From positions 1-17,528 of the forward strand of contig JAUYJR010000052.1 in assembly GCA_030699255.1 (NCBI GenBank): a stretch of DNA of 17,528 bases, given 5' to 3'. Positions within the stretch are counted from its first letter, which is position 1. Every line of letters begins with the position of its first letter. The notes under the pieces are model-generated. The model did not search any database, had not been told where the DNA came from, and was given only the letters and a program-made list of their open reading frames with translations. Source of the stretch: a bacterium (GTDB lineage: Bacteria; Patescibacteriota; Minisyncoccia; Minisyncoccales; UBA10102). The position numbers were made by a program, and so were the translations under genes. Shown in pieces: positions 3,519 to 16,456 of the stretch.

Positions 3519-4004
3519 TTACTCTTCTTTATACTGCGCAACCAGCACTCTGGCAGGACGAATAACACTCTCTGAATACCGGTATCCTTTCTCCGCAACA
3601 CGGACAATTGTTCCCGGTGGAGCATGTACTCCTTCAACTTCTCCAATTGCTTCGTGGAGCGCGGGATTAAAGGACTCCCCTTCTGCTGGCGCAATTTCCT
3701 GAATTCCACACAAGGCCAACGCGCTCCGCAACTGGGACTGAATTTGAGAGAGCCCCAAACTCATATCTTTGTTTGAATCGTAAGAAACTTGCAGGGCGCG
3801 CTCAAGACTATCAAGAACCGGAAGAAGCCGCTGGAGAATATCTTTCTTTGCTCGTAGCTCCACATCTTGCCTGCGGGAACTCTCGCCCTTTTTGTAATTC
3901 TCAAAATCTGCCTGCGTTCTCTTCCAGTTATTCATACACTCATAAAGCTCAGCCTCCAACTTTTGGGAATCCGGCTTCTCATTTGTTTTTTCTTTTTGCT
4001 TCAT
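3519..4004 (-). CDS. grpE: nucleotide exchange factor GrpE
   Basis: 161 aa with coiled-coil N-terminus and a GrpE-type C-terminus (FNPALHEAI...G.IV.V.EKGY...VIRPARV). Sits between hrcA and dnaK. 4-nt overlap with the hrcA stop. Confidence 0.9.
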   Translation of the reverse strand: MKQKEKTNEKPDSQKLEAELYECMNNWKRTQADFENYKKGESSRRQDVELRAKKDILQRLLPVLDSLERALQVSYDSNKDMSLGLSQIQSQLRSALALCGIQEIAPAEGESFNPALHEAIGEVEGVHAPPGTIVRVAEKGYRYSESVIRPARVLVAQYKEE

Positions 4005-4699
4005 AGCAAAGATCGTATAAGACGAATATTTTTTGTGTACGCCATGCGCGTGGGACCAACAATGGCAACCAGCCCTTCTCTTCCGTAACGCAGAGATGTT
4101 CCCATCACCACGCTCAGTCGGTGAGAACTGCTAAACGGATTCTCTTGCCCAATGTACACCGAGAACTCTCCGTCTTGAAGCACATTCTCAACGCATTCTT
4201 CCATGTCTTTAACACAACGAATGAGGTCTGCAACATACTCCTGGTTGCGAAATTCCGGCTCCCGCAACACCTCTCCCCATCCTTCCTGCCAGAAAAGACG
4301 ATGCTCTGTGGTGTACAACACAACAAGATTTGAGGTTTCTCGAGAAAGAAATTTTGCAAGAGATCGAAACAACTGAACACCTTCTTCAGAAAACGAAGTA
4401 TCTCGTGACTCTGCTGTATTTGCCATTAATGGAGACGCACGCTTCTGCTCTAGCTCCAAGACATGGTCTACAAACATTCGGTATCCGCGCTCCGTTGGAA
4501 CTCTCCCTGCCGAAGTATGCGGCTGAAAGATAAGTCCCTGATCGGCAAGCTCCCTCATCTCATTCCGAATAGTAGCCGGAGACACGCTGATTCTGCTCCT
4601 CTGCTCCACGTACTGGGAACTTACGGGTTCGGCGGTCTTAATGTACGAAGATACAATATGGGTGAGAATATGGAGCTGTCGTTCCGTTATCTCTGTCAT
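4001..4699 (-). CDS. hrcA: heat-inducible transcription repressor HrcA (compact, 232 aa)
   Basis: N-terminal winged helix (SPATIRNEMRELADQGLIFQPHTSAGRVPTERGYR) and C-terminal GPTRMAY motif. Start moved to the ATG at 4699. The track's start at 4735 is a TTG lying inside the CIRCE operator. Confidence 0.85.
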   Translation of the reverse strand: MTEITERQLHILTHIVSSYIKTAEPVSSQYVEQRSRISVSPATIRNEMRELADQGLIFQPHTSAGRVPTERGYRMFVDHVLELEQKRASPLMANTAESRDTSFSEEGVQLFRSLAKFLSRETSNLVVLYTTEHRLFWQEGWGEVLREPEFRNQEYVADLIRCVKDMEECVENVLQDGEFSVYIGQENPFSSSHRLSVVMGTSLRYGREGLVAIVGPTRMAYTKNIRLIRSLL

Positions 4700-4724
4700 G
4701 GTCTTAAGTATATCCCATTTTGTA

Positions 4725-4751
4725 TTAGCAGTCAACCCGTCCGTCTGCTAA
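4725..4751 (-). promoter_or_regulatory. CIRCE-like inverted repeat (HrcA operator)
   Basis: TTAGCAGTC-N9-GTCTGCTAA, against the CIRCE consensus TTAGCACTC-N9-GAGTGCTAA. The 7-bp arms TTAGCAG/CTGCTAA are perfect. It lies 26 nt upstream of the hrcA ATG and about 20 nt downstream of a candidate -10 box. Confidence 0.6.
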
Positions 4752-4759
4752 TACCTCTC

Positions 4760-5623
4760 TTATTTTGAGTCTCTATACCGTAGGTATGCCTGGCTTCCAA
4801 ATTGAAGATCAATGTACTCCAAGTGAGGTCTGCGTTCCTGTTTAATATGATCTTCCAGTACAGCGGCAAGCTTTGTTCCTTGCCAGGAGGTGTTTCCATT
4901 CAGATCCATAATAACGCTCCACCCTTCTGTTGTTACCTGCTCTATGCGGCCTTCCTCCGTAACAATATGATGAACGGAAACGCCCGGAGCAAGCGCGCGG
5001 AAAACAATTTCCGCCTCTTCCATTGCCTGGAGAATACGGGAAAGCTTTTCAGACGATATAACACTATCCCCTATCATAGCTTTTGTTGCACTATCATTTC
5101 CCGTTAAAAAAAGTATGCTTGCATCTTCTTCTCTAGATTCGCGAAATGCTTTTCCTGTTCTATCCAGAACAACACACTCCTCATATTGCTCTCCTTGGCA
5201 CCACAAAACAACACTTTCCCGCTCTTGCAAGAGCATAGAGAGTTTCCGTGGGAGATGCCTTTGAACCTTCGCGGAGAGAAGTGCCGGATACCGGCTTTCA
5301 AGCTCCTGCTCCAGAGAATTGAGAGGAACGGAAAATATGCTTGCCGTTGAAAACCAAAGAACTTTCCGAGAGAGCATTTCGCTTGCGATACCTCGCGCCT
5401 CATGCTCTGAGATTTCTTGAAGGTCTCCTTGTACTTCAATGGTGTCTACCGCAAATAGAGAAGAGAGGAATAGAACATACAGAACAACAAGAACCATGAC
5501 GGTGCCTGCAATACCAATCCAAAACCATGTACGCCTCCATAGAGTAGACCAAAAAGACGGTTTTTTTCGCCGAACCGTGAGTGGTGAGTTTGGTCGAACC
5601 ACTTTCCTTAGCCTCTCCCTCAT
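4760..5623 (-). CDS. ftsQ: cell division protein FtsQ/DivIB-like (one TM helix plus POTRA-like region)
   Basis: Basic N-terminus, one TM helix (WFWIGIAGTVMVLVVLYVLFLSSLF), then the FtsQ-style pattern VDTIEVQG...IS..E......KV.RHLPRKL...L.ERE.V.LW. ATGA overlap with the serS stop. Confidence 0.6.
   Translation of the reverse strand: MRERLRKVVRPNSPLTVRRKKPSFWSTLWRRTWFWIGIAGTVMVLVVLYVLFLSSLFAVDTIEVQGDLQEISEHEARGIASEMLSRKVLWFSTASIFSVPLNSLEQELESRYPALLSAKVQRHLPRKLSMLLQERESVVLWCQGEQYEECVVLDRTGKAFRESREEDASILFLTGNDSATKAMIGDSVISSEKLSRILQAMEEAEIVFRALAPGVSVHHIVTEEGRIEQVTTEGWSVIMDLNGNTSWQGTKLAAVLEDHIKQERRPHLEYIDLQFGSQAYLRYRDSK
4772..4800 (-). promoter_or_regulatory. putative promoter of the hrcA-grpE-dnaK operon
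   Basis: Minus strand reads TTGGAA (4800-4795), a 17-nt spacer, then TATAGA (4777-4772). It sits inside the 3' end of the upstream ftsQ-like ORF and just upstream of CIRCE. Confidence 0.4.
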
Positions 5624-6885
5624 TGCTTTTCAATAACACTCTTTCCTACAAACTTTTGAAGAATCTCCGGTACCGTAATGCTACCATCTTCCTGTTGGTA
5701 GTTTTCCATAATAGCAATGAGCGTTCTCCCAATAGGAAACCCGGTGGCATTGAGCATATGAACAAATTCCAGCTTGCCATCTTTTTTCTTCATGCGAATA
5801 TTTAGGCGTCTTGATTGAAAGTCCGTGGTATTGGATGCCGAACTCACTTCGCGGTACCTTCCCTGACCCGGGAGCCATGCTTCAATATCAATCGTAGAAA
5901 CAGCGGGGCGAGACATATCTCCCGCGGCAAGTTGCATCACCTGGTATGGAATACCAAGCGCCCGCCACAGATCCTCTTCAAAATTGAGCAGGAACCCATG
6001 TTCTTCACGGGATTTTTCAGGATGGCAGAAACTAAAGAGCTCTACTTTATCAAACTGATGAACTCTCAAGATACCACGCGTATCTTTTCCATATGAACCA
6101 GCCTCTTCTCGAAAGCATGTTGAAAAGGCAATGTAGCGCCGCGGAAGTTCTTTTTCTTCAAAAACCTCGTCGGCATGCATAGGACCTACCGCCTGCTCAG
6201 CCGTTCCAACAAGAAACAGCCCGTTTTTCTCAAGGTAGTAACGCTCCGCCAAGTCTTCCGGCGTATCCACATACCCCATCTTTTGCATCATTTCTGCTCT
6301 AATAAGAACAGGTGGAGAAATTGGCGTAAATCCTGATCTTATTCCCATATCCATCACATACCGTATGAGGGCAAGCTCAAGCAGAACCGCGTCATTCTTG
6401 AGATATGCAAAGCGAGATCCCGAAACCTTTGCCGCCCGCTCAACGTCAAGGATGCCGAGTTGTTCGCCAAGCTGAAAGTGGTCTTTTGGCTCAAACGCAA
6501 ACACGGGCTTCTCCCCCACCTGACGGATAACCTGGTTCTGATCTTCTCCACCTTCCGGCACATCATCTTGCGGAATATTTGGGAACCGCGTCATCACCAA
6601 CTTCAAAGATTCTTCCAGCTCTTTGAGAATTTCTTCTTGGGCGCGAGTTTCTTCTTTGAGCTTTTTTCCTTCCTCAATTTTCTGATTGCGATCTTCGCCC
6701 GAACTTGCTTGCACCTCCTCGGACAGCATGTTCTGTTTTGCCCTTAGCTCTTCTACTTGGAGTAGAACTACCTTTCTCCGATCATCCAGCTCAATGAGTT
6801 GCGCGGTATCAAGCGCAACCCCGCGCTTTTTGAGCGCTGTAGCCACGTATTCCGGATTCTCCCGTATACTTTTTATATCAATCAT
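5620..6885 (-). CDS. serS: seryl-tRNA synthetase
   Basis: MIDIKSIRENPE... N-terminal coiled-coil arm and a class II core (FREEAGSYGKDTRGILRVHQFDKVE, GRTLIAIMENYQ). Confidence 0.95.
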   Translation of the reverse strand: MIDIKSIRENPEYVATALKKRGVALDTAQLIELDDRRKVVLLQVEELRAKQNMLSEEVQASSGEDRNQKIEEGKKLKEETRAQEEILKELEESLKLVMTRFPNIPQDDVPEGGEDQNQVIRQVGEKPVFAFEPKDHFQLGEQLGILDVERAAKVSGSRFAYLKNDAVLLELALIRYVMDMGIRSGFTPISPPVLIRAEMMQKMGYVDTPEDLAERYYLEKNGLFLVGTAEQAVGPMHADEVFEEKELPRRYIAFSTCFREEAGSYGKDTRGILRVHQFDKVELFSFCHPEKSREEHGFLLNFEEDLWRALGIPYQVMQLAAGDMSRPAVSTIDIEAWLPGQGRYREVSSASNTTDFQSRRLNIRMKKKDGKLEFVHMLNATGFPIGRTLIAIMENYQQEDGSITVPEILQKFVGKSVIEKQ

Positions 6886-9539: not shown

Positions 9540-9590
9540 AAATATATTTTGATTTTGCTTCCCTTTGTACTCTTTTTTTGCCCTTGTGTC

Positions 9591-9657
9591 AACAAAAACC
9601 GGCTTGGGGCTGTGGGCGCAACAGAGGAGAATGTTGTTGTACCCCCAGCCCCAAACC
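9591..9657 (-). terminator. intrinsic terminator closing the hammerhead/structured-RNA transcription unit
   Basis: On the minus strand GGTTTGGGGCTGGGGG (9657-9642) pairs with CCCACAGCCCCAAGCC (9616-9601). That is 16 positions with one U-G wobble and one mismatch, around a 25-nt loop. GGTTTTTGTT follows (9600-9591). The wobble exists only on the minus strand. Confidence 0.7.
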
Positions 9658-9737
9658 GACAAATGCTTGTGTATCAAAAGTGAACCAATCTCTCCGTTGA
9701 ATTCTCGTTTTGGTTTGCCAAAACAAGAACTCAGTTG

Positions 9738-9799
9738 AGAGGAGAAGTGTGAGTTGAAAGCAGGGTGCGACCTGACTCTAACCACATTTCTCCTATTTG
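9738..9799. repeat. 62-bp direct repeat, copy 1 (self-complementary hairpin)
   Basis: Identical base for base to 10268-10329. A diverged extension runs to about 9819. Confidence 0.95.
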
Positions 9800-10179
9800 C
9801 TTGCCCCTAGGAGGGGCTTGTTGGTGTCCCTACTTTTGGTAGGGACACCGTCCGTTCCATTCAGGAGGCAGATCCTCCTGACAGGATCGGATCGAATCGG
9901 CGGGACGGGGATCATCGCTGTACAGAGTACAGCGATCCCCGTTGCACCGCGGTTGCCGCGGTTGAGGGGGAACGAGTGATTCACGTGATTCGGTGGCCAT
10001 ATGGGCCACCTCCTTCCCCGACCGGGCGAATATTTTGGAATGCCCAGGCCGGCAGAAAAAGAGAAAAACGATTGAGCAATATCAGCCAAGATACAAAATA
10101 TGGGGCTGTATTGCTGTGCAAACAGATACTTCTCTCCTTCTGCCGACCCGAGCGGTGTGTGATGTAAAAGAACTTCAAT

Positions 10180-10271
10180 CTCTGTTTTCGCTCTTTTGAG
10201 CTCATCAGCTCGGACCTCCCGTAAAGCGGGACCCCGTCCCACCACGGGACAGGTACATCCGAGAAACAGAG
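10180..10271 (-). ncRNA. hammerhead self-cleaving ribozyme, type III topology
   Basis: Core CUGAUGA (10208-10202). Stem II GCUC-AAAA-GAGC. GAA (10189-10187). A 7-bp stem III includes the A15.1-U16.1 pair. U17 is at 10264. Stem I is 6-7 bp. Full parse in the findings. Confidence 0.8.
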
Positions 10272-10329
10272 GAGAAGTGTGAGTTGAAAGCAGGGTGCGA
10301 CCTGACTCTAACCACATTTCTCCTATTTG
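10268..10329. repeat. 62-bp direct repeat, copy 2
   Basis: Identical to 9738-9799, a period of 530 bp. A diverged extension runs to about 10350. Its minus-strand 3' edge overlaps stem III of the hammerhead by 4 nt. Confidence 0.95.
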
Positions 10330-10373
10330 TTGACCCCGGTGGAGGGGCTTAGTTTACGCCGAGGCGAAAGAGG

Positions 10374-10658
10374 TCATGACACACGATGGACGCGGATCAC
10401 ATGCTTGTCGCTGACGCCGGCGTTAATGCCGACTTTGTACGCCGAGGCGTACGCGACCAACTCCAGGCGCTCTCCCACCTGGAGGGCGTCGAGCAGTGGG
10501 GTCCACTGCTCCGTCAACGCCTCGACGTTCTTGTCGCTCATGCGCCCTTTGGCGCAAGAGCGAGCGTTTTCGGCCGCAATTGCGGCCAGATGCTCGGCAT
10601 CACTCGGGGCCACGGTCTGAATCTGGCCACCATAGCGACTAACCTCAAATAAATGCAT
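10374..10658 (-). CDS. hypothetical protein, 94 aa (islet ORF)
   Basis: ATG preceded by GAAGGAGGATATC, a strong SD with a 5-nt spacer. G/C-rich third codon positions throughout. I recognise no family. Confidence 0.7.
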   Translation of the reverse strand: MHLFEVSRYGGQIQTVAPSDAEHLAAIAAENARSCAKGRMSDKNVEALTEQWTPLLDALQVGERLELVAYASAYKVGINAGVSDKHVIRVHRVS

Positions 10659-10819
10659 GATATCCTCCTTCTGCCCGGATAACGTTCCGGGCCAACATAT
10701 TTGTCCACAGAAGACCTTTGCAAGATCAACTGCCTCCTGTGGAACAAGGAACCAACAATATACATTGTCTTCTCCTTGCTCCGCAGGATGGATGATATAA
10801 AAGGTACTACTGCTCTATT

Positions 10820-10856
10820 CAGAACAAGCAAACTCTCCTGTTTAAGGAGAGTTTGC
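10820..10856 (-). terminator. terminator/attenuator-like hairpin inside the 5' leader of the 94-aa ORF
   Basis: Minus strand reads GCAAACTCTCC-TTAAACA-GGAGAGTTTGC, an 11-bp perfect stem, followed by TTGTTCTG. It lies about 65-100 nt downstream of promoter P3. Confidence 0.4.
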
Positions 10857-10927
10857 GTCCATTTTCTCTTTATTGGCGCCGGTCTCTCCCCAAACCGGCG
10901 CCATCCATATGCTTGATTGTTAAGGGC

Positions 10928-10955
10928 ATTATATCACACTTTCCAGATTTGTCAA
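10928..10955 (-). promoter_or_regulatory. near-consensus sigma70 promoter P3 (extended -10)
   Basis: Minus strand reads TTGACA (10955-10950), a 16-nt spacer, then TGATATAAT (10936-10928). Confidence 0.65.
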
Positions 10956-11060
10956 GCCCTTTCATTCCCTGTGAAAATCCACTACGTCAATGAACTTTCA
11001 CAGGGAGAGCAGAGAGTAGAAAATAATTCGTGCAGTTTTATTTTCTCTCTCTGCTCTTTG

Positions 11061-11504
11061 TCACACAATAGCGGCGAGTGACGCGCCGAGGAGCTTCTCG
11101 GCAACCTGCCGAGCAAGCTCCTCCAAAGCAGAACCTTCCATGTCCTCCGGCCGGACAAGAAAGTCTGCCTTGGCAAACCCCTTGGCCGGGTCGGTAGTCA
11201 AGTCGAGTGTTACCACTCGACCCTGCCACTCAACCCAGCCATCCACACCATGGTACCGATCGGCGGGGCTGCCGACCGCAGTGTACAGACGGAGCTGGAA
11301 CCAATCTTCCAGCTCCAGCGCCATACACACCGTGGCGTGGAGATCGGAGGCCATCCGTGGGCCAGGATCGGCCGGATCCCACGGCTGGCACTCCCTCACC
11401 AGAGCCAGGGCCTGCCTGTATGGCAGGTACTCCTGGCTCTGGCGCCAGACGCACTCTCCGAGCACCTCGTGCTCAAAGAGCCTTCCAGTGTAACCGTTGC
11501 CCAC
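11061..11504 (-). CDS. hypothetical protein, 147 aa (islet ORF)
   Basis: GTG at 11504 preceded by AAAGGAGGTAAGTTC (SD AGGAGG, 7-nt spacer). Strong G/C bias at third codon positions. The track's start at 11558 lies upstream of the gene's own -10 box. I recognise no family. Confidence 0.7.
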   Translation of the reverse strand: MGNGYTGRLFEHEVLGECVWRQSQEYLPYRQALALVRECQPWDPADPGPRMASDLHATVCMALELEDWFQLRLYTAVGSPADRYHGVDGWVEWQGRVVTLDLTTDPAKGFAKADFLVRPEDMEGSALEELARQVAEKLLGASLAAIV

Positions 11505-11548
11505 GAACTTACCTCCTTTCAAATCAAATTTTGTAGTGATCTGGGAAT

Positions 11549-11577
11549 AGTATATCACAAATATAAAGAAAAGTCAA
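11549..11577 (-). promoter_or_regulatory. near-consensus sigma70 promoter P2 (extended -10)
   Basis: Minus strand reads TTGACT (11577-11572), a 17-nt spacer, then TGATATACT (11557-11549). It shares GGGCTTGAC and GTGATATA with P3. Confidence 0.65.
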
Positions 11578-11602
11578 GCCCCCTTGAGGACCTGACTATA
11601 CG

Positions 11603-11836
11603 CTATTGCCGCGTATTTTTTGGAGGCCAAAGAATCTTTACAACGCATCCTTTCTCCCCTATTGGGGAGCATTTTGGACAGTCAGCACCAAACACTGCTG
11701 TGGCACCAACTGCTCCTTTTCCCATCCTCTCCCGCAACTCCTCCTTTCTTTTGTTACTGAGGAGCTGTGCAAATCTCTCCCATTCCACGGAGTACTCTCC
11801 GCATATGGGACACTGAAAGGTAAAGATGCCCTGCAA
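11603..11836 (-). CDS. small zinc-ribbon protein, 77 aa (islet ORF)
   Basis: Two CxxC pairs (CPIC near the N-terminus, CPKC near the C-terminus). TTG start preceded by AAAGGAG with an 8-nt spacer. Confidence 0.55.
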   Translation of the reverse strand: MQGIFTFQCPICGEYSVEWERFAQLLSNKRKEELRERMGKGAVGATAVFGADCPKCSPIGEKGCVVKILWPPKNTRQ

Positions 11837-11894
11837 GATACCAGCTCCTTTCTCTACAACATGTCTACAACCGTTTTTCCTGGAGCCGAGAGGT

Positions 11895-11922
11895 ATTATA
11901 CATATTATTAAAACTGTGTCAA
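11895..11922 (-). promoter_or_regulatory. consensus sigma70 promoter P1
   Basis: Minus strand reads TTGACA (11922-11917), a 16-nt spacer, then TATAAT (11900-11895). The -35 box overlaps the mrdA TGA stop (11921-11919). Confidence 0.6.
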
Positions 11923-15590: not shown

Positions 15591-16456
15591 CCTGTCGACA
15601 TTTTTCTTCCGTTACCAGAAGGATCGGACTATATCTTCACCCCACAATCACTTTGCGACTAAGGGGGTCGGCGTGTTATACAGATTTTAGCTCTGTATAA
15701 GGAACATATTGTTAATGTTCACAAGTCTCTACGGGGCTATAAATCAATTTGTATTTCATGGATGGAATCAGGAGATCTCCGATTAAATTTTTCAGAGTCG
15801 GTATAGAAGACTTGATAAATCTTATACGATAGTATTCTTTGTCGCGATTCAACCTTGCCTCTAATCCTATTTTACAAAGAAGTCGTATAAGTCTAAGTTG
15901 GTCCTCAATGCCGAACTGTTGCGTATTCAGGTATATATCTGAATCTCTGCACCTACTTCCATCATCCATAAACCATATGCTTACAACATGGGGATCGAGC
16001 CGAAGTTCTGTTGGAATAACTTTTTTGCCATTGCGATAAAATCGCCGGTATAATTCGGTTATTTCCGGATGTTGGCGGGTATAAAAACGGTATGCGACTC
16101 TTTGGCCGTTTCCATTTCGCATCTTTGGTCCCGAAACACAGATACTTCGCAGTATGCTGAATTTCCAATCAACATACTCTTTTGCCCGAAACATATGATT
16201 TACTTCCAGAAAAGCATCCTTTCTTCCCGGCATGATCCGGAGGTATCCATCACCAAGGATCGAACCGAGAATTGTAGATGTCTGTAATTGAGTTAAGCTT
16301 CCCACGGCATTGTCCATAGATATGGGTACATTATACCATATGGAGTTCACCGTTATAAGCCGATTTTTGTTTTTCTTCGAATCTCTATTTCTCTCGAAGA
16401 ACAGGTATGACATTACTGCCATAGCACCCCGATTATAAATTTATAACTTATGGTTA
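15591..16456 (-). mobile_element. group I intron in 23S domain V (between E. coli U2500 and C2501)
   Basis: The exon sequence GTTCGGCACCT | CGATGTCGGCTC is split by 866 nt. The 5' exon ends in U and the intron ends in G. The intron segment GGGTGCT (16429-16423) can pair with the exon end GGCACCT (16463-16457) as P1, with a U-G pair at the splice site. A LAGLIDADG ORF sits inside. Confidence 0.8.
15712..16422 (-). CDS. LAGLIDADG homing endonuclease (double-motif, intron-encoded)
   Basis: Two LAGLIDADG motifs (ILGSILGDGYL and VSIWFMDDGS) at monomeric double-domain spacing. The true start may be the internal Met at 16317 (MDNAVGSL...). That would leave more 5' intron sequence for the ribozyme core. 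Confidence 0.9.
   Translation of the reverse strand: MAVMSYLFFERNRDSKKNKNRLITVNSIWYNVPISMDNAVGSLTQLQTSTILGSILGDGYLRIMPGRKDAFLEVNHMFRAKEYVDWKFSILRSICVSGPKMRNGNGQRVAYRFYTRQHPEITELYRRFYRNGKKVIPTELRLDPHVVSIWFMDDGSRCRDSDIYLNTQQFGIEDQLRLIRLLCKIGLEARLNRDKEYYRIRFIKSSIPTLKNLIGDLLIPSMKYKLIYSPVETCEH

What the first reader, a model, noticed from the sequence alone, without database searches (positions are those of the whole stretch)
10330..11922. GC-rich, SD-using islet with consensus promoters, inserted between mrdA and greA in an SD-poor genome
Three contrasts with the surrounding genes are visible in the sequence. (1) Composition. My hand counts give 38/60 G+C at 11211-11270, against 21/60 at 5041-5100 and 28/60 at 2401-2460. 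The 94-aa and 147-aa ORFs also show strong G/C bias at third codon positions. (2) Translation signals. The three islet ORFs have AGGAGG, AGGAGG and AAGGAG at 5-8 nt from their starts. The housekeeping genes I inspected show no SD-like purine tract upstream. Examples are dnaK (TGTAATAAACAAAACCT-ATG) and serS (GATTAACCATACTAT-ATG); dnaJ, grpE, lysS, mreC, mrdA and greA look the same. (3) Transcription signals. Each islet ORF has its own near-consensus sigma70 promoter. P1 is TTGACA-16-TATAAT, P2 is TTGACT-17-TGATATACT and P3 is TTGACA-16-TGATATAAT. P2 and P3 share extra flanking identity (GGGCTTGAC, GTGATATA). The -35 box of P1 overlaps the mrdA stop codon. Together these suggest a horizontally acquired cassette expressed independently of the host operons. 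The products are a 77-aa zinc ribbon and 147-aa and 94-aa proteins with no motif I recognise. The hammerhead and structured RNA form the 3' module of the cassette. Possible functions include a defence or addiction module, a phage or plasmid remnant, or an RNA-centred system. The function is unknown.
Basis: partly seen in the sequence, partly recalled or inferred. Interest (0 to 1): 0.65.

Follow-up and report, generated by a model that had tools for sequence, protein, structure and literature searches.

The report
Self-expressed foreign gene cassettes with ribozyme
Three small foreign genes, each with its own promoter and ribosome-binding site, plus a self-cleaving hammerhead RNA, sit between two housekeeping genes of an uncultivated bacterium whose own genes use no such ribosome-binding sites; two of the genes form an uncharacterised partner pair seen at many other genomic sites.

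Summary
orf94 and orf147 have GC 0.60/0.63 and GC3 0.73/0.72, against 0.41-0.51 and 0.35-0.52 for host genes. Only the islet ORFs have strong Shine-Dalgarno sites. The only two 12/12 sigma70 matches in the 17.5-kb window are P1 and P3.

The nearest genome available (L009, GreA 80% identical) has mrdA and greA adjacent, separated by about 300 nt, with none of this DNA.

The islet is not one cassette. It is an array of three autonomous promoter-gene-terminator units, like the 'morons' of phage genomes. orf147 belongs to an unannotated family of 999 clusters with no Pfam model. Its partner is the zinc-ribbon protein orf77: a zinc-ribbon gene is adjacent in 57 of 81 loci, and one natural fusion exists. 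Close relatives of the pair lie in unrelated housekeeping contexts, including inside the S10 ribosomal-protein operon. There too they are GC-rich, self-promoted and SD-led.

orf94 is a real gene (dN/dS 0.19) with only one homologue. Downstream lies a canonical type III hammerhead (cleavage at 10264|10263) with an expanded stem I. It is followed by five strong hairpins and bracketed by 62-nt identical direct repeats 530 nt apart.

Biochemical function is unknown. A nuclease-like fold for orf147 is only a weak lead.

The parts
11895..11922 (-). P1, sigma70-type promoter TTGACA-16-TATAAT (12/12). The -35 box overlaps the mrdA TGA stop codon.
11603..11836 (-). orf77: 77-aa zinc-ribbon protein (CxxC...CxxC). 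TTG start, AAGGAG SD 8 nt upstream, GC 0.49. It is the conserved partner of the orf147 family.
11572..11597 (-). Terminator-like hairpin after orf77. It overlaps the -35 box of P2.
11549..11577 (-). P2, TTGACT-17-TG-TATACT (10/12, extended -10).
11061..11504 (-). orf147: 147 aa, GTG start, AGGAGG SD, GC 0.63, GC3 0.72. Member of a large unannotated family (999 clusters, no Pfam model). Invariant residues are T6 G7 E11 Q40 P47 D82 D88 T99 D101 T103 K108 A113.
10966..11055 (-). Two strong hairpins after orf147, marking the end of the unit. There is no canonical U-tract.
   Evidence: (I21)
10928..10955 (-). P3, TTGACA-16-TG-TATAAT (12/12, extended -10).
10659..10921 (-). About 260-nt structured leader of orf94. 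It holds a hairpin at 10875-10902 and a terminator/attenuator-like hairpin at 10828-10856 followed by UUGUUCUG. The latter keeps its pairing in L006 through two double (compensatory) changes.
10374..10658 (-). orf94: 94 aa, ATG start, AGGAGG SD, GC 0.60, GC3 0.73. Only one homologue is known (77% identity). dN/dS is 0.19, so it is a real gene.
10268..10337 (-). Direct repeat copy X_A. 62 nt are identical to X_B (70 nt at 96%). It is itself an imperfect hairpin of about 55 nt.
   Evidence: (D1)
10180..10271 (-). Type III hammerhead ribozyme. Stem III is CUCUGUU/AACAGAG. The predicted cleavage is after U10264, before C10263. Stem I is CUCGGA/UCCGAG and encloses two extra hairpins. The core is CUGAUGA, then stem II GCUC-AAAA-GAGC, then GAAA.
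9824..10153 (-). Array of five strong hairpins: 10153-10042, 10027-9955, 9949-9900, 9893-9852 and 9850-9824. The z-score is -13. It contains a doubtful 56-aa ORF (10000-9833) with an AGGAGG that is sequestered in a stem.
9738..9807 (-). Direct repeat copy X_B, 530 nt downstream of X_A.
9599..9733 (-). Hairpin (9733-9698) and a strong intrinsic terminator (9659-9599, followed by a U-run). This is the predicted end of the P3 transcript. The greA promoter (TTGACA-17-TACAAA, 9592-9564) follows.

Best explanation
The roughly 2.3-kb segment 11922-9598 (minus strand) is horizontally acquired DNA. It sits in the mrdA-greA spacer of a small-genome bacterium, probably of the Candidate Phyla Radiation (CPR), whose own genes start translation without Shine-Dalgarno (SD) pairing. 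The segment is built from three autonomous transcription units. Each has a near-consensus sigma70 promoter, a strong SD, a gene and terminal hairpins. This is the architecture of phage 'morons', here in a bacterial chromosome.

Units 1 and 2 (P1-orf77 and P2-orf147) encode the two halves of a conserved protein pair. orf147 belongs to a widespread unannotated family with an invariant acidic/lysine constellation (E11, D82, D88, D101, K108). I infer a metal-dependent enzyme acting on nucleic acid. The 73-108-aa zinc-ribbon partner would be its binding or regulatory subunit. Elsewhere the pair is normally a translationally coupled bicistron; here it is split and reordered.

Unit 3 (P3) should give a transcript of about 1.3 kb. 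In order it contains a 260-nt structured leader with an attenuator-like hairpin, orf94, repeat X_A, the hammerhead, five hairpins, repeat X_B and a terminator. Hammerhead self-cleavage between U10264 and C10263 would split it in two. The 5' product is an orf94 mRNA ending in the X_A hairpin with a 2',3'-cyclic phosphate. The 3' product is a highly structured RNA of about 665 nt with a 5'-OH end, finishing in X_B and the terminator. The stability and fate of the two halves would thus be uncoupled, as proposed for hammerheads that flank genes in prophages.

What is shown: the sequence signals, the composition contrast, the absence of the segment from the nearest relative, the recurrence and pairing of orf147 with the zinc ribbon, purifying selection on orf94, and the canonical hammerhead fold.

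What is inferred: that the promoters and SDs are used, that the ribozyme cleaves, that the two proteins form a complex, and every statement about biochemical function.
For: Foreign origin.
- Composition z-scores are +5.7 and +6.7, and tetranucleotide distance peaks over the islet.
- L009 keeps the order 23S-5S-mreC-mreD-mrdA | greA-GT2-lysS but has an unrelated spacer of about 300 nt.

Autonomy of the units.
- P1 and P3 are the only 12/12 promoters in the window.
- SD energies are -8.7 to -12.3 kcal/mol for islet ORFs and no stronger than -3.3 for host genes.
- Hairpins or terminators follow each unit.
- In L003 versus L147 the homologous pair cassette begins a few nt before its -35 box and ends right after its terminator. 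L003 also carries a second GC-rich (GC3 0.78), SD-led, self-promoted gene (Band_7) inserted next to it.

The orf147 + zinc-ribbon pair.
- A zinc-ribbon gene lies directly downstream in 57 of 81 loci with enough sequence; 8 of the 48 downstream partners in the first count overlap by 4 nt.
- orf77 matches those partners at E 1e-10 to 1e-5.
- P0092 is a natural fusion of both proteins.
- Close relatives sit in unrelated contexts: next to a PemK TA pair and a Mur ligase, next to Band_7/dnaE, after a PaaX-like gene, and inverted between rpsS and rplB in the S10 operon. In that last case the pair has TTGACT-17-TATAAT, an AAGGAG SD and GC 0.58-0.60 in a host of GC 0.42.
- The family has 999 clusters at E<=1e-3 and no Pfam hit in 101 members. 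It has no relatives in 2.9 million viral contigs.

orf94. dS is 0.84, dN is 0.16 and dN/dS is 0.19 against L006.

Hammerhead.
- The unconstrained MFE fold of 10275-10175 gives the three-stem junction with the CUGAUGA and GAAA core.
- A regex-plus-stem test over about 0.5 Mb of module loci found it only here and in L006.
- Stem II and the UGU start of loop I match a common class of phage hammerheads.
- L006 keeps the region at 97% identity, and its indels break the overlapping ORFs.
- Prophage hammerheads that flank single genes are thought to process long transcripts (PMC3088659).
Against: - The nearest 'empty' site is at roughly family-level distance (23S 92-94% identical), so insertion versus loss is argued from composition and recurrence rather than from a clean junction.
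- No integrase, transposase or target-site duplication bounds the islet, so no mobility mechanism is shown.
- orf77 and the spacers have host-like GC.
- Distant family members match their host's GC and sit in partly syntenic housekeeping neighbourhoods. The family as a whole may therefore be a resident cellular function rather than a selfish one.
- The nuclease idea is weak. Foldseek on a model with pLDDT 94 gave no hit better than E 0.03. hhalign against Hjc and YraN was negative.
- The hammerhead scores only 21 bits against Rfam HH9, whose threshold is 52. Its cleavage triplet, UUU, is unusual.
- No expression data exist, and the host anti-SD sequence is unseen.
Confidence: 0.7

Rival explanations
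1. Addiction or defence module. orf147 is a toxin or effector, perhaps a nuclease, and the zinc-ribbon protein is its antitoxin or sensor. The cassette persists at housekeeping sites because losing it is harmful, or because it protects against phage. orf94 and the hammerhead RNA would be accessory immunity or regulatory parts.
For: The pair consists of two small adjacent genes, often with 4-nt overlaps. It has its own promoter and sits in variable contexts, including next to a PemK TA pair and inside an essential operon. The orf94 allele is far more diverged (dS 0.84) than its 97%-identical flanks, as seen for genes under frequency-dependent selection. The weak structural neighbours are mostly PD-(D/E)xK nucleases.
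Against: There is no match to any of 5027 PADLOC defence models, nor to Pfam, NCBIfam or PHROGs. A natural fusion of the two proteins is unusual for a toxin-antitoxin pair. In this window the two genes are separate transcription units in reversed order, which breaks the usual stoichiometric coupling. Many family members look like long-term residents with host composition.
Confidence: 0.2
2. The 530-bp unit (one X repeat, the hammerhead and the hairpin array) is a separate small mobile element that integrated by recombination within X, leaving X_A and X_B as junction repeats. It could be a non-autonomous hairpin-ended element of the IS200/IS605 (PATE) type, an attC-like cassette, or a DNA copy of a hammerhead-bearing circular RNA.
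For: The direct repeats are 62 nt and identical, exactly 530 nt apart, with a sharp 3' boundary 4 nt before the hammerhead cleavage site. Each repeat is an imperfect palindrome, like the recombination hairpins of ssDNA transposons and integron attC sites. The unit is extremely structured, z about -12.5 to -13. An independent assembly (L008) breaks exactly at the end of X_A, as expected for a true repeat. The related genome L009 carries a different 269-nt hairpin element at the same spacer.
Against: There is only one hammerhead and no second self-cleaving motif, so a unit-length RNA cannot be excised by ribozymes. No attC core sites (RYYYAAC/GTTRRRY) flank X. No integrase, Y1 transposase or reverse transcriptase lies in the window. 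A 20-mer from X is absent from JGI metagenome contigs and IMG/VR. The unit has no BLAST match in phage or plasmid collections. No second insertion site is known.
Confidence: 0.08
3. The region is ancestral to the lineage and was deleted or replaced in L009. The high GC3, the SDs and the strong promoters reflect selection for very high or special expression of these genes, not foreign origin.
For: Only one fairly distant comparator genome has the empty site. L006, a related strain, also carries orf147-orf94-hammerhead. The spacers and orf77 have host-like composition.
Against: Highly expressed host genes such as dnaK show GC3 0.45 and no SD. Pair homologues only 44-56% identical are GC-rich, SD-led and self-promoted in at least five unrelated genomic contexts. 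That pattern fits a shared mobile gene pool better than local adaptation.
Confidence: 0.08
4. The 'structured RNA' is not a functional RNA. It might be a DNA-level array of palindromes, such as protein-binding or recombination sites or an origin remnant. Alternatively it might be the mRNA of a small protein (orf56, 10000-9833), which the hammerhead would liberate as a separate cistron.
For: The hairpins are nearly perfect palindromes, with only 9 G-U among 126 pairs, and both strands fold almost equally well (-179 versus -173 kcal/mol). orf56 has the strongest SD in the window (-15.5 kcal/mol) at correct spacing. Phage hammerheads usually sit just upstream of an SD and ATG.
Against: orf56 has no homologue among 5.8 billion proteins and no Pfam hit. 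Its GC3, counted by hand from the sequence, is about 0.55 against 0.72 for the real islet genes. Its SD and AUG are buried in stems. The hammerhead fixes the functional strand as the transcribed one.
Confidence: 0.12

Closest known systems
Phage 'morons': autonomous promoter-gene-terminator units inserted between conserved genes (Juhala/Hendrix et al. 2000; cited from my own knowledge)
   Same: Each unit has its own sigma70 promoter, one ORF and terminal hairpins or a terminator. The units sit between genes that are adjacent in a relative. Their base composition differs from the neighbours. In L003 versus L147 the unit boundaries coincide with the -35 box and the terminator.
   Different: The units lie in a bacterial chromosome between housekeeping genes, not in a phage. 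No relatives were found in viral contigs. There is an added contrast in translation-initiation mode: SD-led units in an SD-independent host.
Bacterial and prophage hammerhead ribozymes that flank genes (Perreault et al. 2011, PMC3088659; Rfam clan CL00010)
   Same: The core is the canonical CUGAUGA/GAAA. Stem II (GCUC-AAAA-GAGC) and the UGU start of loop I are identical to those of many phage hammerheads. The ribozyme sits in an intergenic position within a mobile-looking transcription unit, so a likely role is transcript processing.
   Different: Stem I carries an insertion of about 45 nt forming two hairpins, so Rfam models do not reach threshold. The cleavage triplet is UUU. There is a single copy rather than a flanking pair. 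It is followed by a hairpin array of about 330 nt and bracketed by 62-nt direct repeats. The host is a CPR-like bacterium, and the two full-text searches found no paper on hammerhead ribozymes in this group.
Type II toxin-antitoxin and other two-gene selfish modules
   Same: Two small genes are tightly linked and often translationally coupled. The module is self-promoted and patchily distributed at variable sites.
   Different: There is no homology to known toxin, antitoxin or defence families. A fused form exists. Many members appear to be vertically inherited residents.
PD-(D/E)xK (restriction-endonuclease-like) nucleases, e.g. Hjc, VRR-NUC and the homing endonuclease I-Ssp6803I
   Same: The weak Foldseek neighbours are dominated by this fold. 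There is a conserved N-terminal-helix Glu, a hGxD motif at a strand start and a D-x-T on the next strand, followed by a Lys.
   Different: All matches have E >= 0.03 and TM <= 0.35. The canonical (D/E)xK lysine is a threonine. The strand/helix order departs from alpha-beta-beta-beta-alpha-beta. Profile comparison to Hjc and YraN is negative.

Membership tests
Hammerhead ribozyme (type III) | Conserved catalytic core: C3-U4-G5-A6-N7-G8-A9, G12-A13-A14 and the A15.1-U16.1 pair | tested here: met
   CUGAUGA at 10208-10202 and GAAA after stem II; the A15.1-U16.1 pair is present.
Hammerhead ribozyme (type III) | Three helices around the core, with stem III open and stems I and II closed | tested here: met
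   The unconstrained MFE fold of 10275-10175 gives stem III of 7-8 bp, stem I of 6 bp (with inserted hairpins) and stem II of 4 bp. It is preserved in L006 with one U-A to U-G change and one mismatch at the end of a stem.
Hammerhead ribozyme (type III) | NUH cleavage triplet 5' of stem I | tested here: met
   The triplet is U16.2-U16.1-U17, followed by C1.1 (10266-10263). H = U is allowed but uncommon.
Hammerhead ribozyme (type III) | Score above the Rfam gathering threshold | tested here: not met
   The best match is HH9, 21.2 bits against a threshold of 52, covering the core only. The stem I insertion explains the shortfall.
Hammerhead ribozyme (type III) | Self-cleavage activity | not testable with these tools
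   Needs in vitro transcription.
Moron-like autonomous transcription unit | Own promoter, ORF and terminator, lying between genes that are adjacent in a relative, with deviant composition | tested here: met
   The terminator of the orf147 unit is a hairpin pair without a U-tract.
Moron-like autonomous transcription unit | Resides in a phage or prophage genome | tested here: not met
   All flanking genes are housekeeping. The family is absent from IMG/VR.
Classical genomic island or integrative element | Integrase or recombinase, tRNA/tmRNA target, and direct repeats flanking the whole island | tested here: not met
   There is no such gene in the islet or the window. The repeats flank only the 3' 530 bp. 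The only tRNA is 9 kb away.
Type II toxin-antitoxin system | Homology of either partner to a known toxin or antitoxin family | tested here: not met
   Pfam, NCBIfam, PADLOC and PHROGs gave nothing significant.
Type II toxin-antitoxin system | Bicistronic, co-regulated pair | tested here: inconclusive
   This holds for most family loci. In this window the genes are reordered, each with its own promoter.
PD-(D/E)xK nuclease superfamily | Alpha-beta-beta-beta-alpha-beta core carrying the E...D...(D/E)xK catalytic motif | tested here: inconclusive
   The model has pLDDT 94. Foldseek hits are weak (E >= 0.03) though enriched in this fold. The lysine position is a threonine. hhalign against two members is negative.
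Integron gene cassette (attC) | R''/R' core sites (RYYYAAC...GTTRRRY) at the ends of the imperfect palindrome, with an IntI integrase nearby | tested here: not met
   The X flanks read GTCAAC... and ...CUCU|GUUUCUC or CUCU|CAACUGA. There is no IntI.
Retrozyme or viroid-like circular RNA element | A self-cleaving ribozyme once per unit, in at least 2 copies, so that a unit-length RNA is released | tested here: not met
   One hammerhead is present. X_B is followed by CAACUGAG, which cannot form stems III and I. No other ribozyme motif was found.

The most novel reading that the evidence does not exclude
Two new things may be superimposed here.

(a) The orf147 + zinc-ribbon cassette may be a previously unrecognised self-propagating (homing-type or addiction-type) element of CPR bacteria. 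It would place itself precisely in the spacers of essential operons (mrdA-greA, rpsS-rplB). It would carry universal expression signals (consensus promoter, strong SD) that bypass the host's SD-independent initiation.

(b) The 530-nt hammerhead unit, bounded by hairpin-forming 62-nt repeats, may be an independent RNA-centred mobile element. Alternatively X_A and X_B may pair into an rRNA-like processing stalk of about 55 bp that, together with the hammerhead, excises a stable structured RNA.
Probability: 0.15. Interest if true: 0.8.

Novelty: new variant of a known kind. Interest (0 to 1): 0.55.

Why it matters
CPR/Patescibacteria genomes are tiny and are thought to be poor in mobile DNA. Their translation-initiation rules are also barely studied.

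This locus shows a recurring class of compact, self-sufficient expression cassettes. They are GC-rich and carry a consensus promoter and a strong SD. They lodge between, and even inside, essential operons of hosts whose own genes avoid SD sites. That gives a concrete handle on three questions:
- how horizontal gene flow works in these organisms;
- whether their ribosomes still use SD pairing when it is offered;
- what a widespread, completely unannotated two-protein system (999 clusters) does.

The locus also adds a structurally expanded hammerhead coupled to a large hairpin-array RNA, in a bacterial group for which the two full-text searches found no paper on hammerhead ribozymes.

Tried and rejected
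Searches that found nothing for orf147 or orf94:
- Rfam at gathering and at E<=10 gave nothing for the leader, the hairpin array or X.
- Pfam, NCBIfam, PADLOC and PHROGs gave nothing significant. The weak Csx1 hit for orf94 (E 0.012) was discarded.

Structure of orf147:
- The first AlphaFold run with 7 sequences was useless (pLDDT 42). It was redone with 101 sequences (pLDDT 94).
- The PDB sequence profile search gave nothing.
- Foldseek against PDB and BFVD gave no significant hit.

Searches for more copies of the hammerhead unit or X:
- BLAST against phages and plasmids gave no match.
- A 20-mer from X gave 0 hits in JGI metagenome contigs and in IMG/VR.
- Exact-product look-ups of the 174-aa and 59-aa ORFs overlying the RNA are not on record.
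- The GreA exact look-up is not on record.

ORFs overlapping the RNA or the leader, all rejected as genes:
- The 174-aa and 74-aa ORFs are broken by indels in L006.
- The 76-aa leader uORF loses its ATG in L006.
- orf56 has no homologues.

Other ideas rejected:
- Co-occurrence of hammerheads with the orf147 family: none in 91 other loci.
- The 30-nt similarity between the stem I insert and the 3' end of mrdA (D3) is at chance level.
- Integron attC, retrozyme, retron, CRISPR and type III TA readings were each considered and rejected on defining features (see the membership tests).
- The search for related loci with the 101-sequence alignment failed because no block was conserved enough. It was repeated with 21 sequences.


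Full report
WHAT IS THERE

All genes in the window run on the minus strand. The order is 23S (interrupted), 5S, mreC, mreD, mrdA, the islet, greA, a GT2 glycosyltransferase, lysS, serS, ftsQ, hrcA, grpE, dnaK, dnaJ and tRNA-Lys. Between the mrdA stop (11919) and the greA start (9539) lie 2.4 kb. The closest available genome has about 300 nt at that position.

CHECK OF THE OBSERVATION

Composition:
- The three hand counts of G+C are exact.
- orf94 has GC 0.60 and GC3 0.73. orf147 has GC 0.63 and GC3 0.72.
- Twelve host genes have GC 0.41-0.51 and GC3 0.35-0.52.
- Against host 300-nt windows the two ORFs are +5.7 and +6.7 sd. Tetranucleotide distance to the host profile peaks at 10-12 kb.
- One correction: orf77 (GC 0.49) and the inter-ORF spacers (0.43-0.44) are host-like.

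Translation signals:
- The islet ORFs carry AGGAGG, AGGAGG and AAGGAG at 5, 7 and 8 nt before an ATG, a GTG and a TTG.
- Pairing energies to an assumed canonical anti-SD are -11.0, -12.3 and -8.7 kcal/mol.
- All twelve host genes fall between +1.7 and -3.3, weaker than the random background of -3.6.

Transcription signals:
- P1 and P3 are the only 12/12 sigma70 matches in 17.5 kb.
- P2 is 10/12 with an extended -10.

IS IT FOREIGN?

A scan of one genome per species with GreA found a single close relative, L009. Its GreA is 80% identical and its 23S is 92-94% identical. All other hits are at or below 51%.

L009 keeps the gene order on both sides. However, mrdA (3781-5685) and greA (5995-6453) are separated by 309 nt that share nothing with the islet. 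BLAST homology stops at window 11935 and resumes at 9549.

Two other assemblies (L007, L008) are the same strain. L006 is a related strain that also carries orf147-orf94-hammerhead.

The comparator is distant, so polarity rests on the combination of an absent site, deviant composition, and recurrence elsewhere (next section).

THE orf147 + ZINC-RIBBON PAIR

A word-indexed search found only six homologues of orf147, at 47-56% identity. They lie in different contexts. In each case a 73-80-aa CxxC...CxxC protein homologous to orf77 lies next to the gene.

An exhaustive HMMER search with the alignment found 999 cluster representatives at E<=1e-3, of which 496 are at E<=1e-10. None of 101 members scanned hits any Pfam model.

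In 80 further metagenomic loci plus the earlier ones:
- A zinc-ribbon partner is adjacent in 57 of 81 loci that have enough sequence. It is nearly always directly downstream; 8 of the 48 downstream partners in the first count overlap by 4 nt.
- orf77 matches these partners at E 1e-10 to 1e-5.
- One protein, P0092, is a natural fusion of the two.

The pair is therefore a functional unit. In the window its order is reversed and each gene has its own promoter.

Neighbours of the pair are diverse housekeeping genes. The most striking case is P0010 (44% identical to orf147). With its partner it lies in inverted orientation between rpsS and rplB inside the S10 ribosomal-protein operon. There it has TTGACT-17-TATAAT, an AAGGAG SD, a bidirectional terminator and GC 0.58-0.60, in a host of GC 0.42 whose ribosomal genes lack SDs.

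Across loci, the clade closest to the window is consistently GC-rich relative to its flanks. Its members have promoters matching at >=11/12, 26-60 nt upstream, and strong SDs. The neighbouring genes have a median anti-SD energy near -1.5. More distant members match host GC and look resident. No relative was found in 2.9 million viral contigs.

CASSETTE BOUNDARIES

L003 and L147 carry the same pair at 87% identity, next to the same dnaE. The shared block starts a few nt before the -35 box and ends just after the terminator.

L003 has in addition a 1.3-kb insertion directly after it. This is a Band_7 gene with its own TTGACA promoter, a GAGGAGG SD and GC3 0.78.

So promoter-gene-terminator units with this signature accumulate side by side. 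That is the architecture of phage 'morons' (my own knowledge), here in bacterial chromosomes.

WHAT orf147 MIGHT DO

With 101 sequences, AlphaFold gives a confident model (pLDDT 94). It has three N-terminal helices, a four-stranded sheet and a long C-terminal helix.

Foldseek found nothing significant in the PDB or BFVD. The weak hits (E 0.03-5) are dominated by PD-(D/E)xK nucleases: VRR-NUC, Hjc, AvaII, I-Ssp6803I and Can2.

The invariant residues are E11, D82, D88, D101, T103 and K108, with K112 and D114 nearly invariant. They suggest a metal site. The canonical lysine is a threonine, and profile comparisons with Hjc and YraN were negative.

I therefore treat 'nuclease-like enzyme plus zinc-ribbon subunit' as a lead, not a finding.

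orf94

orf94 has one homologue, in L006. Between the two, dS is 0.84, dN is 0.16 and dN/dS is 0.19, so it is a real gene under purifying selection.

The flanks differ sharply from this. The 3' end of orf147 is 97.5% identical and the hammerhead RNA is 97.1% identical between the same two genomes. The locus is thus a recombinational mosaic with an old, divergent orf94 allele.

The 260-nt leader of orf94 holds an attenuator-like hairpin. That hairpin keeps its pairing in L006 through two double changes.

THE 3' MODULE

From 10271 to 10180 the RNA folds, without constraints, into a type III hammerhead:
- Stem III is CUCUGUU/AACAGAG.
- The cleavage site is U10264|C10263.
- Stem I is CUCGGA/UCCGAG and encloses two extra hairpins.
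- The core is CUGAUGA, stem II is GCUC-AAAA-GAGC, followed by GAAA.

Rfam reaches only 21 bits on the core, because of the stem I insertion.

The same stem II and a UGU start of loop I occur in dozens of phage hammerheads. Those sit just upstream of genes. Such ribozymes are thought to cut long transcripts into gene-length pieces (PMC3088659).

A pattern-plus-stem test found the motif only here and in L006 among all module loci.

Downstream follow five strong hairpins (z = -13). They are nearly perfect palindromes, so both strands fold about equally well. After them come a hairpin and a strong intrinsic terminator at 9659-9599, and then the greA promoter.

The hammerhead and the hairpins are bracketed by a direct repeat: 62 nt identical, 70 nt at 96%, spacing 530 nt. 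Each copy is itself an imperfect hairpin. The two copies could also pair with each other into a stem of about 55 bp that closes the whole domain. The repeat ends 4 nt before the cleavage site.

An independent assembly breaks exactly at the end of copy A.

I could not find this repeat or the unit anywhere else. ORFs overlapping the RNA are not conserved or have no homologues.

The meaning of the repeat remains unexplained. It could be a recombination scar of a small mobile unit, a duplicated 3' stabiliser, or a processing stalk.

MOST LIKELY MECHANISM

Three independent transcripts are made:
- P1 gives the zinc-ribbon mRNA.
- P2 gives the orf147 mRNA. The two proteins act together.
- P3 gives a transcript of about 1.3 kb that the hammerhead splits. 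One product is an orf94 mRNA ending in X_A. The other is a 5'-OH structured RNA of about 665 nt.

The consensus promoters and strong SDs make the units expressible irrespective of host conventions. That fits genes which move between hosts.

All functional steps are inferred from sequence.

VERDICT

The biochemical function remains unknown.

The locus is a new variant of known kinds: moron-like islets, and hammerheads in mobile contexts. It combines a sizeable uncharacterised protein pair with an unusual ribozyme-RNA module.

Noticed in passing
window 15591-16456 (minus strand), inside the 23S rRNA gene: An 866-nt insertion relative to the 23S of L009. It matches a group I intron below threshold (Rfam 30.5 bits, E 1.3e-5). 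It holds a 236-aa LAGLIDADG_2 homing endonuclease ORF (15712-16422, Pfam E 1.5e-36) with GC 0.40 and an SD-like GGGGUG.
   Followed up: partly
L009 5718-5986 (mrdA-greA spacer of the nearest relative): The 'empty' site is not bare. It holds a 269-nt element with perfect 26-nt terminal inverted repeats (GGGGGCGGGATTCGAACTCACATCGG). It folds into a Y-shaped structure (-150 kcal/mol, z -11.5). There is no Rfam or tRNA/tmRNA match. The spacer may be a hotspot for structured or mobile elements in this lineage.
   Followed up: partly
L009 1136-1337: The 23S of L009 has an insertion of about 200 nt at a different position, which the window lacks. rRNA insertions therefore vary between these relatives.
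   Followed up: no
L137 5001-5670, L138 1000-1669: The family pair (P0010 plus a 73-aa zinc ribbon) is inserted in inverted orientation between rpsS and rplB of the S10 ribosomal-protein operon. It carries its own promoter and a bidirectional terminator that should interrupt operon transcription.
   Followed up: partly
L003 888-2223: A second self-promoted, SD-led, GC-rich (GC3 0.78) single-gene cassette (Band_7/SPFH) is inserted right after the pair cassette, relative to L147. Its promoter shares GGCTATTGACA with the pair's promoter, much as P2 and P3 of the window share GGGCTTGAC.
   Followed up: partly
P0092 (213 aa, from the representative library): A natural fusion of an orf147-family domain (residues 2-130) with a C-terminal zinc ribbon homologous to orf77. 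It could be a true fusion or a frameshifted gene pair.
   Followed up: partly
window 10290-10870 versus L006: The divergence is mosaic. The orf94 block is 76% identical (dS 0.84), while orf147 and the hammerhead RNA on either side are 97-98% identical. This implies allelic replacement by recombination. In the window X_A is identical to X_B, but L006's X_A differs by a 6-nt insertion and several substitutions, which suggests concerted evolution of the repeats.
   Followed up: partly
window, upstream of all 12 host genes; also L009 and L137: Host start regions pair with the anti-SD even less well than random sequence (+1.7 to -3.3 against a background of -3.6 kcal/mol) and are A/U-rich. This points to SD-independent, possibly short-leader, initiation. 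For example, greA has TTGACA-17-TACAAA only about 25 nt before its ATG.
   Followed up: partly
window 9955-10027 (minus strand): The strongest SD-like sequence of the window (GGAAGGAGGUGG, -15.5 kcal/mol) lies inside the noncoding hairpin array. It is paired with CUCGUUCCCC, and an AUG sits in the loop of a perfect 7-bp hairpin. It could be a sequestered start of orf56 or a chance or decoy site.
   Followed up: partly
L008 end (= window 10268): An independent Logan contig of the same strain ends exactly at the last base of repeat copy X_A, as expected if the assembler's graph branches at a true repeat. It could also hide population heterogeneity for the 530-bp unit.
   Followed up: no
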